Assembly: GCF_003790525.1 (NCBI RefSeq)
Contig: NZ_CP033635.1
Strand: one strand, 5' to 3'
DNA from: Escherichia coli
Lineage (GTDB): Bacteria > Pseudomonadota > Gammaproteobacteria > Enterobacterales > Enterobacteriaceae
Length of the DNA: 64,000 nucleotides
The notes beneath the pieces are model-generated. The model did no database searches, was not told the origin of the DNA, and saw nothing but the letters and a program-made list of their open reading frames with translations. The translations under genes and the position numbers were made by a program. Within the stretch, counting starts at the first letter, position 1. Every line of letters starts with the position of its first letter. Shown here one piece after another: positions 4,616 to 61,946 of this stretch.

Positions 4616-4680
4616 ATAATAGCGCCTGTGTACATATGCTTTAACAGGCAGGGATGACGACACTTAAAAGGTGACAAATC

Positions 4681-5488: not shown

Positions 5489-6313
5489 ATGGAACAGAGA
5501 AAAATTACACGCAGCGATCTGGTGAGCATGTTTCTGCGCTCCAACCTGCAACAGGCATCCTTTAACTTTGAACGTATTCACGGGCTGGGTTTTTGCTACG
5601 ACATGATCCCCGCCATCAAACGACTTTACCCATTAAAAGAGGATCAGGTTGCGGCGCTCAGGCGACACCTAGTGTTCTTCAATACCACGCCAGCCGTATG
5701 TGGCCCGGTCATCGGCGTCACTGCCGCCATGGAAGAGGCGCGAGCCAACGGCGCGGAAATTGATGACGGTACCATTAACGGCATCAAAGTCGGCCTGATG
5801 GGACCGTTGGCAGGTGTTGGCGATCCACTGGTCTGGGGAACGCTGCGCCCGATTACCGCCGCGCTCGGCGCATCTCTGGCACTTTCGGGCAACATTCTCG
5901 GCCCCCTGCTGTTCTTCTTTATTTTCAATGCAGTACGTCTGGCAATGAAATGGTATGGGCTGCAACTGGGCTTTCGTAAAGGGGTGAATATCGTCAGCGA
6001 TATGGGCGGTAATTTGCTGCAAAAACTGACCGAAGGCGCGTCGATTCTCGGGCTGTTTGTAATGGGCGTACTGGTGACCAAATGGACATCGATCAACGTG
6101 CCGTTAGTGGTTTCACAAACGCCTGCCGCCGATGGTGCCACCGTCACTATGACCGTACAGAACATTCTCGACCAGCTTTGCCCTGGATTGCTGGCGCTCG
6201 GTTTGACGCTGCTGATGGTACGTCTGCTCAACAAAAAAATTAACCCGGTATGGCTGATTTTCGCCCTGTTTGGTTTAGGGATTATCGGTAATGCGCTGGG
6301 CTTCCTGTCCTGA
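5489..6313 (+). CDS. sorM: PTS mannose/sorbose-family EIID component
   Basis: ORF track starts at a TTG (5459); the ATG at 5489 (MEQRKITRSDL...) has ACGGAG 5 nt upstream. Membrane protein resembling the EIID family. Confidence 0.8.
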   Translation: MEQRKITRSDLVSMFLRSNLQQASFNFERIHGLGFCYDMIPAIKRLYPLKEDQVAALRRHLVFFNTTPAVCGPVIGVTAAMEEARANGAEIDDGTINGIKVGLMGPLAGVGDPLVWGTLRPITAALGASLALSGNILGPLLFFFIFNAVRLAMKWYGLQLGFRKGVNIVSDMGGNLLQKLTEGASILGLFVMGVLVTKWTSINVPLVVSQTPAADGATVTMTVQNILDQLCPGLLALGLTLLMVRLLNKKINPVWLIFALFGLGIIGNALGFLS

Positions 6314-6364
6314 TTCTTCGCCCCGGCACGACTGCCGGGGTCATCGCTCAACATGAGGTGGTTT

Positions 6365-7594
6365 ATGAAAACAACAGCTCTGCGTCTTTATGGCAAACGT
6401 GACCTGCGTCTGGAAACCTTTGACCTTCCTGAAATGCAGGAGGATGAAATCCTCGCGACGGTGGTCACTGACAGCCTGTGCCTCTCTTCCTGGAAAGAGG
6501 CCAATCTGGGGGAAAACCATAAAAAAGTACCCGACGATGTGGCGACCAATCCCATCATCATCGGCCACGAATTTTGCGGCGATATTCTGGCCGTGGGTAA
6601 AAAGTGGCAGCACAAATTCCAGCCGGGTCAGCGTTATGTGATTCAGGCCAACCTGCAACTCCCCGACCGCCCGGACTGCCCCGGCTACTCCTTCCCGTGG
6701 GTAGGCGGCGAAGCGACGCATGTGGTTATTCCCAACGAGGTCATGGAACAAGATTGCCTGCTGGCATACGACGGCGAAACCTATTTTGAAGGCTCGCTGG
6801 TTGAACCGCTTTCCTGCGTGATTGGCGCGTTCAACGCCAACTATCATCTTCAGGAAGGTAGTTATAACCACACGATGGGGATTCGCCCGCAAGGGCGCAC
6901 GCTGATCCTCGGCGGCACCGGACCAATGGGACTGTTGGCGATTGATTATGCGCTGCATGGACCCGTTAACCCGTCGCTGCTCGTTATTACCGATACCGAC
7001 AACGACAAATTGAGTTATGCGCGCAAGCACTATCCATCAGAACCGCAAACACTGATTCATTATCTCAATGCCACCGATGCAGCATTTGATACGTTAATGG
7101 CGCTGAGTGGCGGTCACGGCTTCGATGATATTTTCGTCTTTGTGCCTAATGAAGGACTGGTGACTCTCGCCTCTTCCTTGCTGGCGACAGATGGTTGCCT
7201 GAATTTCTTCGCCGGACCGCAGGATAAACATTTCAGCGCGCCAATTAATTTCTACGATGTGCATTATGCATTTACCCACTACGTGGGCACGTCAGGCGGC
7301 AATACCGACGACATGCGCGCGGCGGTCAAACTGATCGAAGAGAAAAAAGTGCAGGCCGCAAAAGTGGTAACACATATTCTTGGGCTGAATGCCGCGGGCG
7401 AAACCACGCTTGAATTGCCTGCCGTCGGCGGCGGGAAAAAACTGGTGTATACCGGGAAATATCTGCCGCTGACATCACTCACGCAGATTCAGGATGAAGA
7501 ACTGGCGGCGATTCTGGCGCGTCATCAGGGAGTCTGGTCCGGCGAGGCGGAGCAGTACCTGCTCGCCCATGCAGAGGCGATTTCCCATGATTAA
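6365..7594 (+). CDS. sorE: Zinc-dependent dehydrogenase, sorbose-1-phosphate reductase type
   Basis: About 409 aa; ATG at 6365 preceded by GAGG; medium-chain dehydrogenase fold (GHEFCGDI zinc-ligand region, GGTGPMG Rossmann motif); last gene of the canonical sorCDFBAME order. Confidence 0.75.
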   Translation: MKTTALRLYGKRDLRLETFDLPEMQEDEILATVVTDSLCLSSWKEANLGENHKKVPDDVATNPIIIGHEFCGDILAVGKKWQHKFQPGQRYVIQANLQLPDRPDCPGYSFPWVGGEATHVVIPNEVMEQDCLLAYDGETYFEGSLVEPLSCVIGAFNANYHLQEGSYNHTMGIRPQGRTLILGGTGPMGLLAIDYALHGPVNPSLLVITDTDNDKLSYARKHYPSEPQTLIHYLNATDAAFDTLMALSGGHGFDDIFVFVPNEGLVTLASSLLATDGCLNFFAGPQDKHFSAPINFYDVHYAFTHYVGTSGGNTDDMRAAVKLIEEKKVQAAKVVTHILGLNAAGETTLELPAVGGGKKLVYTGKYLPLTSLTQIQDEELAAILARHQGVWSGEAEQYLLAHAEAISHD

Positions 7595-8399
7595 TCGCGA
7601 TACTCAACTCTGCATGTCGCTGGCCGGCCGCCCCGGTAACTTCGGCACGCGTTTTCACAATTATCTTTATGAAAAGCTGGGGCTGAATTTCATCTATAAA
7701 GCGTTCACCACCCAGGATATTGCAGCGGCGGTGAAAGGGATTCGCGCGTTGGGTATTCGCGGTTGCGCTGTGTCGATGCCGTTTAAAGAAAGCTGCATGC
7801 CTTTTCTCGACGCGATCGATCCGTCGGCGAAGGTCATTGATTCCGTGAATACCATCGTGAATGACGACGGCAGGCTGACCGGGTTTAACACCGACTATAT
7901 CGCGGTGAAAAGCCTGATTACCCACCACCAGCTCAATACCACCACGCGAGTGATGATTCGCGGCAGTGGCGGCATGGGCAAAGCGGTGATTGCCGCCTTT
8001 CGCGACGCGGGGTTTACGGATGTTATCATTGCCGCCCGCAACCGCGAGAGCGGCCCGGCGCTGGCGAAGCAGTATGGGTTTCAGTGGCAACCGCAGCCGG
8101 AAGGCATCGCCTGCGACATTCTGGTCAACGTGACGCCCGTTGGCATGAGCGGCGGTAAAGAGAGCCATGAGCTGGCCTTCAGCGAAGCGATGGTCTCAAC
8201 GGCAAGCGTCGTTTTTGATGTCGTGGCCTTGCCGCCGGAAACGCCGCTCATTCGCCTGGCGCAACGGCTTGATAAGCAGACGATTAGCGGTGCGGAGGTG
8301 ATTGCTTTACAGGCCGTCGAGCAGTTCGCAATGTATACCGGCGTACGGCCTGATGCGCAACTGATTGCTGAGGCGGCACAATTTGCACGAGAAGGATAA
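7587..8399 (+). CDS. Shikimate/quinate dehydrogenase-family (AroE-like) oxidoreductase, translationally coupled to sorE
   Basis: ATG at 7587 overlaps the sorE stop (ATGATTAA). 270 aa with SDH-family hallmarks: the VSMPFK lysine motif, the NTDY aspartate motif and a GSGGMGKAV nucleotide-binding loop. Not part of the canonical sor operon as I remember it. Confidence 0.7.
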   Translation: MINRDTQLCMSLAGRPGNFGTRFHNYLYEKLGLNFIYKAFTTQDIAAAVKGIRALGIRGCAVSMPFKESCMPFLDAIDPSAKVIDSVNTIVNDDGRLTGFNTDYIAVKSLITHHQLNTTTRVMIRGSGGMGKAVIAAFRDAGFTDVIIAARNRESGPALAKQYGFQWQPQPEGIACDILVNVTPVGMSGGKESHELAFSEAMVSTASVVFDVVALPPETPLIRLAQRLDKQTISGAEVIALQAVEQFAMYTGVRPDAQLIAEAAQFAREG

Positions 8400-8521
8400 G
8401 AAACATCAGCGCCTTGTTTGCCACGCCAGAAGCAATGCGCAACATCGTGAGCCATGTCAGTAAGCGGTTAAAATCACAGTGGTAGCATGGCTCCCGTGAT
8501 TTCTTACTAACCGGAGAAGTA

Positions 8522-9211: not shown

Positions 9212-9251
9212 ATGAATTGCCGGATGCATGATCCGGCATCTTGTTCATCGT

Positions 9252-9289
9252 GCCTGATGCGACGCTTTACGCGTCTTATCAGGCCTACA
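9252..9289. repeat. REP (repetitive extragenic palindromic) element, preceded by a GCCGGAT/ATCCGGC hairpin at 9219-9237
   Basis: GCCTGATGCGACGCTTTACGCGTCTTATCAGGCCTACA fits the REP consensus; lies between the convergent pepE and yjbB. Confidence 0.7.
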
Positions 9290-23860: not shown

Positions 23861-23890
23861 GCAAAAAGGCCATCCTGACGGATGGCCTTT
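23861..23890 (-). terminator. rrnE operon intrinsic terminator
   Basis: On the minus strand, an AAGGCCAUC...GAUGGCCUU hairpin followed by U5, immediately 3' of the 5S rRNA. Confidence 0.75.
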
Positions 23891-61918: not shown

Positions 61919-61946
61919 TTTTCAGGGGAGCTAATGCTCCCCTATC

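What the first reader, a model, noticed from the sequence alone, without database searches (positions are those of the whole stretch)
6319..6343. GC-rich stem-loop inside the sor operon between sorM and sorE
CCCCGGCA-CGAC-TGCCGGGG is a perfect 8-bp GC-rich hairpin located 6 nt after the sorM stop and about 20 nt before the sorE ribosome-binding site. It has no U-tract, so it is unlikely to be a strong terminator. It may serve as an mRNA stability or processing element that uncouples expression of the PTS genes from the two downstream dehydrogenase genes. A similar hairpin (GCCTGT...ACAGGC) lies between sorB and sorA at 4623-4650.
Basis: seen in the sequence. Interest (0 to 1): 0.2.

Follow-up and report, generated by a model that had tools for sequence, protein, structure and literature searches.

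The report
Conserved RNA hairpin between sorM and sorE
A strong GC-rich RNA hairpin just after the sorM stop codon is real and is kept, with compensating base changes, in every enterobacterial sorbose operon examined; it is not a terminator and most likely marks an mRNA-decay boundary inside the operon, a known kind of element.

Summary
The hairpin exists as described: G-CCCCGGCA-CGAC-UGCCGGGG-U, window 6320-6341, 6 nt after the sorM UGA and 15 nt before the sorE Shine-Dalgarno (-18.3 kcal/mol, z -4.6). Its existence alone proves little, because shuffles of the window give about 1.5 such hairpins. Comparison is what counts. The hairpin sits 6-8 nt after the sorM stop in all 33 distinct Enterobacterales sor operons examined, from about 14 genera. 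Its loop varies freely (3-7 nt). Its basal GCCCCG/CGGGGC stem is more conserved than synonymous sites (94% vs 71%). The three apical pairs show compensatory changes, including two alleles within E. coli. G·U pairs far outnumber A·C, so the sense-strand RNA is what is selected. It occurs once per genome, so it is not a REP. No lineage has a U-tract. Published RNA-seq shows sorE induced as strongly as the upstream genes, so it is not a strong terminator. The best mechanism, inferred and not shown, is a protective structure at a differential-decay boundary. Blocking 3'-5' exonucleases to stabilise sorCDFBAM is most likely; a papBA-like 5' cap for sorE mRNA is the main rival. This is a new member of a known kind, of low to modest interest.

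The parts
5489..6313 (+). sorM (PTS EIID-Sor); stop codon TGA at 6311-6313
   Evidence: NCBIfam TIGR00828, E = 2.8e-142. PGAP annotation of the identical locus L001, 5340-6164.
6314..6319 (+). Pyrimidine-rich single-stranded spacer UUCUUC. Together with the stop codon it reads GA|UU, matching the core of the RNase E RN|WUU motif.
   Evidence: The spacer is 6-8 nt to the conserved G-C base pair in all 33 loci. RN|WU is present in 29 of 33 loci and the full RN|WUU in 10 of 33. The motif is low in information, so this is only a lead.
6320..6341 (+). Hairpin 1: 5' arm 6320-6328, loop 6329-6332 (CGAC), 3' arm 6333-6341; 8 Watson-Crick pairs plus a closing G·U.
   Evidence: -18.3 kcal/mol, z = -4.64. 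Covariance model R2 finds it once in each of 33 loci at E <= 0.007. 97.8% of cells are paired, against 33-54% in the slid controls.
6342..6345 (+). CAUC tetranucleotide just 3' of the hairpin, complementary to GGUG of the sorE Shine-Dalgarno (6358-6361). A weak possible anti-SD contact.
   Evidence: The RNAalifold consensus of 21 short-spacer loci pairs these columns, and 20-21 of 21 sequences are compatible, but the changes are one-sided only. The window spacer's MFE structure also sequesters the SD, contributing only about -3.8 kcal/mol. Speculative.
6356..6367 (+). sorE Shine-Dalgarno GAGGTGG (6356-6362) and start codon ATG (6365-6367)
   Evidence: Invariant in all Enterobacterales loci. 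PGAP start in L001.
6365..7594 (+). sorE, L-sorbose-1-phosphate reductase
   Evidence: RefSeq annotation of the 100% identical locus.
7587..8399 (+). Shikimate-5-dehydrogenase-like gene (sdhL). It overlaps the sorE stop by 8 nt and is a variable accessory of the operon.
   Evidence: NF009202, E = 7.8e-141; annotation. PMC12817954 reports it co-induced in ST648 and absent in ST131.
4624..4649 (+). sorB-sorA intercistronic hairpin: GCCTGT, 14-nt loop, ACAGGC
   Evidence: Both arms are retained across about 30 loci, even where 25-125 nt are inserted in the loop. K. michiganensis and K. oxytoca carry one compensatory change, GCCTTT/AAAGGC.

Best explanation
The element is a conserved stem-loop in the sense-strand sor mRNA. 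It folds just beyond the sorM stop codon, so sorM-translating ribosomes should not need to unwind it. It does not terminate transcription. It most likely acts as a protective structure at a differential-decay boundary of the polycistronic sorCDFBAME(-sdhL) transcript. In this model an endonuclease cuts somewhere in the sorE segment. PNPase and RNase II then digest back from the 3' side and stall at the GC-rich base of the stem. That leaves a stable, fully translatable sorCDFBAM mRNA that still has its stop codon, so the relative output of the PTS genes and sorE can differ despite one promoter. Shown here: the structure, its position, its conservation with compensatory changes, its sense-strand polarity, its single-copy status and the absence of a U-tract. 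Taken from published data: sorE is co-induced with the upstream genes. Inferred only: the exonuclease block and any difference in half-life.
For: The hairpin is present 6-8 nt after the sorM stop in all 33 distinct Enterobacterales loci, at -10.7 to -21.3 kcal/mol. The loop varies in length (3-7 nt) and sequence, with 21% column identity. The basal six pairs are 94% identical, against 71% at third codon positions in the last 60 codons of sorM. That pattern fits a barrier whose strength depends on the base of the stem, which a 3' exonuclease meets first.

Compensatory changes are seen at the apical pairs:
- G-C / A-U / C-G, with G·U intermediates, at the seventh pair counted from the base of the stem.
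- C-G / U-A with U·G, and A-U / G-C with G·U, at the next two pairs.
- K. oxytoca has lost one C and its partner G.

The covariation score is 0.157 against <= 0.051 for the slid controls, and 2 of 500 shuffles reach it. G·U cells number 28 against 2 A·C cells, or 13 against 2 without the apical pair. That points to the + strand RNA rather than to a DNA palindrome or the antisense strand.

E. coli itself carries two alleles, about 2010 and about 842 genomes, that differ by a double A-U to G-C change plus a G-C to G·U change. No U-tract follows in any lineage. sorE mRNA is induced like sorM.

The mechanism has direct precedent. Protective 3' hairpins without U-tracts at operon segment boundaries account for 70% of differential-decay cases in E. 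coli and are usually conserved in Salmonella and Enterobacter (PMC5927463). SorE protein induction is much lower than that of the other Sor proteins, log2FC 2.6/0.6 against 5-13, which would fit a less favoured downstream segment.
Against: No 3' end, cleavage site or half-life has been measured for this operon. The equal log2 fold changes of sorM and sorE neither demonstrate nor rule out a stability difference. SdhL, encoded downstream of sorE, shows strong protein induction (log2FC 6.77), so the low SorE value may be a measurement artefact rather than segmental decay. In the published Northern blots the sorE probe lights up later (stationary phase) than the sorC probe, which would fit a more stable downstream segment instead. 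In the E. coli group the only RNase E-like motif in the spacer lies 5' of the hairpin, which fits the rival papBA-like model at least as well. The sor operons compared are close relatives (SorM 91-99% identical, mostly 93% or more), so the number of independent compensatory events is small, about five or more.
Confidence: 0.4

Rival explanations
1. papBA-like 5' protection. RNase E cuts the single-stranded GA|UU(N)UUC at the sorM stop codon. The hairpin then sits near the new monophosphorylated 5' end and shields the sorE(-sdhL) mRNA from further 5'-end-dependent RNase E attack, while the upstream sorCDFBAM part, now lacking a 3' structure, decays faster.
For: An RN|WU motif with the key +2 U lies exactly between the stop codon and the hairpin in 29 of 33 loci. 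In the E. coli group no such motif lies 3' of the hairpin. [quoted passage not shown] The published Northern detects sorE-probe signal later (stationary phase) than sorC-probe signal. Many genera add a second conserved hairpin directly 5' of the sorE SD.
Against: Cleavage at GA|UU would leave 6-7 unpaired nt 5' of the stem. From my own knowledge of 5'-hairpin stabilisers (ompA-type), that is usually too long for full protection. The motif is low in information and partly supplied by the stop codon itself. The low apparent SorE protein induction does not suggest a favoured downstream segment. Only 30% of known cases are of this type.
Confidence: 0.2
2. A translational insulator or gate for sorE. 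The stable hairpin blocks ribosomes that have finished sorM from scanning or re-initiating at sorE. It also presents the adjacent YAYY (CAUC) segment for weak pairing with GGUG of the sorE Shine-Dalgarno, so sorE translation is set independently of sorM, and low.
For: The hairpin starts 6-8 nt after the stop in all loci, which would place it at the mRNA entrance of a terminating ribosome; that geometry is my inference from known ribosome footprints. The RNAalifold consensus pairs the 4 nt after the hairpin with the SD, and 20-21 of 21 short-spacer sequences are compatible. The MFE structure of the spacer sequesters the SD. SorE protein induction is strikingly low although its mRNA is induced equally.
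Against: The anti-SD helix has only 4-8 weak pairs (about -3.8 kcal/mol), and because the SD is invariant it shows only one-sided changes. E. coli variants break two of the extended pairs. In long-spacer genera the SD lies 40-150 nt away, behind another hairpin or an ERIC-like insertion, yet hairpin 1 is kept all the same. The SorE proteomic value may be an artefact.
Confidence: 0.13
3. A weak transcriptional attenuator or RNA-polymerase pause hairpin, or the eroded relic of an ancestral terminator at the end of a sorCDFBAM unit, giving partial termination or pausing before sorE.
For: The GC-rich 8-9 bp stem resembles the stems of intrinsic terminators. The other two perfect 8-bp GC hairpins in the window both have A/T-tract flanks. 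By eye, one distant sor-like operon (Gilliamella L045) has a long AT-rich sorM-sorE spacer containing a long-range stem followed by a T-run. ST131 shows a small drop in log2FC, 7.36 to 7.10.
Against: Only 1-4 T occur in the 8 nt after the stem in all 33 lineages, and 2 in E. coli, so the lack of a U-tract is itself conserved. The terminator scan finds nothing here, and it found no terminator-like site in Gilliamella L045 either. There is no drop in ST648, 5.58 to 5.62. A decaying relic would not show a basal stem more conserved than synonymous sites together with compensatory changes.
Confidence: 0.1
4. A DNA-level palindrome (a protein operator or recombination site) or a member of a dispersed repeat family (REP/BIME-like), rather than an RNA element.
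For: It is a perfect inverted repeat, CCCCGG...CCGGGG, with an invariant core.
Against: There is exactly one copy per genome, in 2866 of 5426 complete E. coli genomes, always at this junction. The covariance model finds no other convincing copy in the window or the loci. The spacing between the arms varies from 3 to 7 nt, the half-site sequence changes, and G·U outnumbers A·C by 28 to 2. These points argue for a folded sense-strand RNA. There is no Rfam match.
Confidence: 0.03

Closest known systems
Protective 3' stem-loops at boundaries of differentially decaying operon segments (malE-malF, Rhodobacter puf, and the transcriptome-wide E. coli set of Dar & Sorek 2018, PMC5927463)
   Same: A stable GC-rich hairpin without a U-tract lies at a cistron boundary inside a co-transcribed operon. 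It is conserved across related enterobacteria, and the downstream gene is still transcribed.
   Different: No 3' end or half-life has been measured here. The malE-malF element is a multi-copy REP, whereas this one is a unique sequence. Most Dar & Sorek structures lie inside the downstream ORF, whereas this one is intergenic, 6 nt after the stop.
papB-papA intercistronic RNase E site followed by a hairpin (5' protection of the downstream mRNA)
   Same: An AU/U-rich single-stranded segment matching the RN|WU core lies immediately 5' of a stable hairpin in an intercistronic region.
   Different: Cleavage has not been mapped. The 6-7 nt 5' overhang it would leave may be too long for protection. 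There is no evidence that sorE mRNA outlives the sorCDFBAM part.
Intrinsic (Rho-independent) terminators
   Same: A GC-rich stem of 8-9 bp with a 3-7 nt loop.
   Different: There is no U-tract in any of 33 lineages. sorE is induced as strongly as sorM.
REP/BIME palindromic units
   Same: An extragenic imperfect palindrome within a transcription unit. A genuine REP lies after pepE in this same window (9253-9285).
   Different: It is single-copy, shorter (22 nt), and bears no similarity to the REP consensus.

Membership tests
Intrinsic terminator | GC-rich stem-loop | tested here: met
   8 Watson-Crick pairs plus G·U, -18.3 kcal/mol
Intrinsic terminator | U-tract (about 5 or more U in the 8 nt after the stem) | tested here: not met
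   2 of 8 in E. coli and 1-4 of 8 across all 33 loci; the terminator scan reports no site here
Intrinsic terminator | Drop in downstream transcript level | tested here: inconclusive
   Published log2FC for sorM vs sorE is 7.36 vs 7.10 and 5.58 vs 5.62. These are fold changes, not absolute coverage.
REP/BIME dispersed repeats | Many copies per genome | tested here: not met
   Exactly 1 place per genome in 2866 genomes and none in the other 2560. Covariance model searches find no other convincing copy in the window.
REP/BIME dispersed repeats | Similarity to the REP consensus | tested here: not met
   The Rfam scan hits the REP-derived naRNA4 model only at 9218-9285, not at 6320-6341.
Protective 3' structure of differential operon decay | Stable RNA structure at a cistron boundary within one transcription unit | tested here: met
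   sorE is co-induced with the upstream genes
Protective 3' structure of differential operon decay | Evolutionary conservation of the structure | tested here: met
   Present in 33 of 33 loci, 97.8% of cells paired, compensatory changes, basal stem more conserved than synonymous sites
Protective 3' structure of differential operon decay | Mapped RNA 3' end at the 3' base of the structure | not testable with these tools
   Needs Term-seq or 3' RACE on sorbose-induced cells
Protective 3' structure of differential operon decay | Longer half-life of the upstream segment than of the downstream segment | not testable with these tools
   Needs a rifampicin decay time course
papBA-like 5' protective structure | RN|WUU RNase E motif in unstructured RNA just 5' of the structure | tested here: inconclusive
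   RN|WU in 29 of 33 loci and the full RN|WUU in 10 of 33. In E. coli the site is GA|UUC. The motif is low in information.
papBA-like 5' protective structure | RNase E-dependent 5'-monophosphate end | not testable with these tools
   Needs 5'-end sequencing in wild type versus rne-ts
Bacterial SECIS / programmed UGA read-through | Conserved UGA, conserved apical loop nucleotides, and a conserved in-frame extension | tested here: not met
   Serratia sp. H1w has TAA. The loops are unrelated (CGAC, CAAC, GAT, CGC, GGTAA and others). Spacer lengths of 49-181 nt are often not multiples of 3.

The most novel reading that the evidence does not exclude
Hairpin 1, the adjacent YAYY anti-SD-like tetranucleotide and (in many genera) a second covarying hairpin abutting the sorE Shine-Dalgarno together form a dedicated post-transcriptional gate. 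This gate would hold SorE (sorbose-1-phosphate reductase) synthesis far below that of the co-transcribed PTS proteins. It would explain why SorE protein rises only about 1.5- to 6-fold while its mRNA rises 50- to 140-fold, like the rest of the operon.
Probability: 0.08. Interest if true: 0.4.

Novelty: new member of a known kind. Interest (0 to 1): 0.22.

Why it matters
The sor operon is an accessory locus enriched in high-risk extraintestinal E. coli lineages (PMC12817954). If the hairpin sets the ratio of transporter to reductase, it would influence how much of the intermediate sorbose-1-phosphate accumulates and how well cells grow on sorbose. More generally it is a clean example of an intergenic, single-copy protective or processing hairpin. 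It has natural compensatory alleles segregating within one species, which gives a ready-made allelic series for testing the differential-decay model. It does not point to a new kind of mechanism.

Tried and rejected
- **MAFFT alignment.** A plain MAFFT alignment of the 45-nt segments put the 5' arm out of register, because the spacer varies by 1-2 nt. I used covariance model alignments instead.
- **Covariance model searches.** The first searches were contaminated by reverse-strand self-hits of the palindrome. I fixed this by rebuilding the model (R2) and cutting at E <= 0.01. The covariance model still mis-gaps the Erwinia/Pantoea C-G flip, so the formal count of covariation is an underestimate.
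- **Rfam.** No family matches the site.
- **Promoter scan.** No internal sigma-70-like promoter lies near 6200-6360.
- **UGA read-through or sorM-sorE fusion.** The two genes are in frame in E. coli with a 51-nt stop-free spacer. I rejected this reading because spacer lengths and frames vary and one lineage uses TAA.
- **SECIS.** Rejected because the loop is not conserved.
- **Frameshifting.** By eye I saw no slippery heptamer before the stop, and a +1 reading would end after about 14 codons.
- **REP family.** Rejected.
- **DNA operator.** Rejected on the variable arm spacing and the G·U over A·C asymmetry.
- **Thermodynamic significance in an 81-nt context.** Not significant (z = -1.2). Only the local segment stands out.
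- **Original sor sequence papers (Wehmeier & Lengeler).** Not held in the library, so I cannot say whether the hairpin was noted in 1992-94.
- **Gilliamella terminator check.** The scan was negative.
- **sorE codon-identity figure.** It looked unreliable, probably because of start-codon offsets, so I did not use it.

Full report
**Locus.** The window is E. coli of a non-K-12 type. ORF and family scans give this order: rluF (minus strand), sorC, sorD (sorbitol-6-P dehydrogenase), sorF (EIIA), sorB (EIIB), sorA (EIIC), sorM (EIID), sorE, a shikimate-5-dehydrogenase-like gene, and pepE. A 401-nt query across the junction matches 2866 of 5426 complete E. coli genomes, always on the chromosome and once per genome, annotated as EIID and 'sorE: L-sorbose 1-phosphate reductase'. 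In the 100% identical record, PGAP puts sorM at window 5489-6313 and sorE at 6365-7594. The intercistronic spacer is therefore 51 nt.

**The observation.** The sequence is TGA-TTCTTC-G CCCCGGCA CGAC TGCCGGGG T-CATCGCTCAACAT-GAGGTGG-TTT-ATG. The stem is 6321-6328 with 6333-6340, closed by G6320·U6341, and the loop is CGAC. The local segment folds at -18.3 kcal/mol (z = -4.64). The 51-nt spacer gives z = -2.8 and an 81-nt context only z = -1.2. Perfect GC-rich 8-bp hairpins occur 3 times in the window against 1.5 +/- 1.4 in dinucleotide shuffles, so existence alone proves little. The other two such hairpins both carry A/T-tract flanks and look like terminators. The sor hairpin is the only one that does not. 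The consensus scan reports neither a terminator nor a promoter here, and Rfam reports nothing.

**Conservation within E. coli.** Eight representative strains show two hairpin alleles. Allele A is GCCCCGGCA-CGAC-UGCCGGGG(U/C). Allele B is GCCCCGGCG-CAAC-CGUCGGGGC. B differs from A by a double change at the apical pair (A-U to G-C), a G-C to G·U change two pairs below, and a loop change, and the stem stays fully paired. A 36-nt search shows one copy per sor-positive genome. About 2010 genomes carry A-type sequences, 367 of them identical to the window, and about 842 carry B-type. The element is therefore not a dispersed repeat.

**Conservation across genera.** A genome-collection scan with SorE returned 80 loci. 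All Enterobacterales sor operons carry a hairpin whose conserved G-C base pair lies 6-8 nt after the sorM stop. The genera are Escherichia (4 species), Pseudocitrobacter, Citrobacter, Klebsiella, Raoultella, Enterobacter, Cedecea, Mangrovibacter, Entomohabitans, Serratia, Erwinia and Pantoea, plus unnamed Enterobacteriaceae. There are 32 distinct hairpin sequences, at -10.7 to -21.3 kcal/mol. More distant sor-like operons lack it: Enterococcus has a 21-nt spacer, and Gilliamella has long AT-rich spacers.

After two rounds of covariance model building, model R2 finds exactly one + strand hit per locus at E <= 0.007. On that alignment:
- 97.8% of cells are paired, against 33-54% when partners are slid by 1-3 columns.
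- The covariation score is 0.157, against <= 0.051 for the slid controls, and 2 of 500 shuffles reach it.

The six basal pairs (GCCCCG/CGGGGC) are almost invariant. The three apical pairs vary:
- G-C, A-U (E. albertii, Citrobacter FP75) and G·U, plus a C-G flip in Erwinia and Pantoea that the covariance model mis-gaps.
- C-G, U-A (Citrobacter MGH106, a Raoultella MAG) and U·G.
- A-U, G-C and G·U.
- K. oxytoca has lost one C and its partner G.

Mean pairwise identity is 94% for the basal stem, 59% for the apical stem, 21% for the loop columns and 73% for the spacer. Third codon positions in the last 60 codons of sorM give 71%. A conserved stem with a free loop and compensatory changes is the signature of selection on structure.

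The compared operons are close relatives (SorM 91-99% identical, mostly 93% or more). I therefore estimate only about five or more independent double substitutions. The alignment was also fitted to the structure.

**Which strand and molecule.** G·U cells number 28 against 2 A·C cells, or 13 against 2 without the apical pair. G·U is tolerated only in the sense-strand RNA. On the antisense strand, or in a symmetric DNA site, it would be a mismatch. Together with the variable arm spacing, this argues against a protein operator or an antisense element.

**Not a terminator.** The 8 nt after the stem hold 1-4 T in all 33 lineages and 2 in E. coli. On the minus strand the tail is A-rich. A 2025 study of sorbose-induced ST131 and ST648 strains reports these transcript log2 fold changes (ST131 / ST648; PMC12817954 supplement):

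| gene | ST131 | ST648 |
|---|---|---|
| sorC | 6.89 | 5.55 |
| sorD | 7.42 | 5.60 |
| sorF | 7.40 | 5.67 |
| sorB | 7.37 | 5.65 |
| sorA | 7.30 | 5.67 |
| sorM | 7.36 | 5.58 |
| sorE | 7.10 | 5.62 |
| sdhL | absent | 6.01 |

sorE is therefore co-transcribed with the upstream genes. These are fold changes, so they say nothing about absolute segment abundance.

The same paper notes that a sorC probe detects induction in transition phase and a sorE probe in stationary phase. It also reports that SorE protein rises far less (log2FC 2.62 / 0.58) than SorD, SorA, SorM (5-13) or the downstream SdhL (6.77). These are hints of post-transcriptional differences across the junction, but they are ambiguous and point in opposite directions.

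**Mechanism.** The closest established mechanism is differential decay of polycistronic mRNA. Dar & Sorek (PMC5927463) describe two arrangements in E. coli:
- A 3' protective structure that blocks PNPase and RNase II and stabilises the upstream segment (malEFG-like, 70% of cases).
- An RNase E cut at RN|WUU just upstream of a hairpin that then protects the downstream segment (papBA-like, 30% of cases).

Both fit the anatomy here. Four points favour the first. The stem is very stable. Its most conserved part is the base, which a 3' exonuclease meets first. The hairpin lies just outside the footprint of a ribosome terminating at the sorM UGA, so it should stay folded, and the trimmed mRNA would keep its stop codon; this is my inference from known ribosome geometry. 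The prior also favours this type. One point favours the second: the stop codon plus spacer reads GA|UU in 29 of 33 loci, and the E. coli group has no such motif 3' of the hairpin. I commit to the 3' barrier at 0.4 and give the papBA-like model 0.2.

A translational role is a weaker third option. RNAalifold pairs the four nucleotides after the hairpin (CAUC, 6342-6345) with GGUG of the Shine-Dalgarno, and 20-21 of 21 short-spacer sequences are compatible. The helix is tiny, however, and because the SD is invariant only one side varies.

GCCTGT/ACAGGC at 4624-4649 is thermodynamically unremarkable. Both arms are nonetheless retained in about 30 loci, even where 25-125 nt, including ERIC-like elements, sit in the loop. 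K. michiganensis and K. oxytoca show a compensatory GCCTTT/AAAGGC. It may be a real long-range pairing, but the evidence is thinner.

**Verdict.** This is a new member of a known kind of element, of low to modest interest.

Noticed in passing
L014-L016, L018, L021, L023, L024, L026, L033, L035, L037, L041 (sorM-sorE spacer, about 20-45 nt before the sorE ATG); absent from the window: Genera with longer spacers carry a second hairpin directly 5' of the sorE Shine-Dalgarno. It shows covariation: CCUC-GAAA-GAGG in Citrobacter, CCCC...GGGG in Raoultella, Enterobacter and Cedecea, UCCC...GGGA in Citrobacter MGH106, and CCCCGG-GUAAA-CCGGGG in Entomohabitans.
   Followed up: partly
L020, L022, L027, L028, L029, L036 (sorM-sorE spacer); L018-L024, L027, L029, L031, L041 (sorB-sorA spacer): Insertions of about 30-130 nt make the spacers 100-190 nt long in the Klebsiella oxytoca group, Mangrovibacter, K. 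indica, Raoultella and others. By eye, many have a core resembling the ERIC consensus (GTGACTGGGG...). They sit inside the loops of the second sorM-sorE hairpin and of the sorB-sorA hairpin, and they leave hairpin 1 and the outer arms intact.
   Followed up: partly
window 6342-6345 and 6358-6361: CAUC immediately after the hairpin is complementary to GGUG of the sorE Shine-Dalgarno. The equivalent YAYY is present in 20-21 of 21 short-spacer loci. It is a possible weak anti-SD contact.
   Followed up: partly
window 9218-9285: After pepE lies a hairpin (9218-9238) that the scan scores as terminator-like on both strands. It is followed by a classical REP palindrome (GCCUGAUGCGACGC...GCGUCUUAUCAGGCCUAC). 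The region matches Rfam naRNA4 below the gathering score (43.7 vs 59.5 bits) and folds at -38 kcal/mol, z = -6.5.
   Followed up: partly
window 7587-8399: A shikimate-5-dehydrogenase-like gene overlaps the sorE stop by 8 nt. According to PMC12817954 it is present and co-induced by sorbose in ST648 but absent in ST131, so the 3' end of the operon is variable within E. coli.
   Followed up: no
window 8447-8500: A long imperfect hairpin (GAGCCAUG...CAUGGCUC) followed by a U-containing tail (CCGUGAUUUCUUACU) lies between the shikimate-dehydrogenase-like gene and pepE. It is a candidate terminator of the sor operon.
   Followed up: no
window 23868-23887 and 61924-61943: These are the only other perfect GC-rich 8-bp hairpins in the window. 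Both are flanked by A- and/or T-tracts, so they look like terminators. By eye, the first lies next to sequence that looks like the end of a 5S rRNA gene on the minus strand.
   Followed up: no
window 6365-7594 (sorE); PMC12817954 supplementary table: SorE protein log2FC on sorbose is only 2.62 (ST131) and 0.58 (ST648). The other Sor proteins give 5-13 and downstream SdhL gives 6.77, although all the mRNAs are induced equally. This is unexplained and could be a proteomic artefact or poor sorE translation.
   Followed up: partly
window 6328-6341 vs L003/L007/L008: The two E. coli hairpin alleles differ at 5 positions within 14 nt (86% identity over 36 nt), while the surrounding 400 nt are 94-95% identical. 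Allele B is identical to that of Escherichia whittamii (L009). This suggests either recombination or rapid compensatory turnover at the stem apex.
   Followed up: partly
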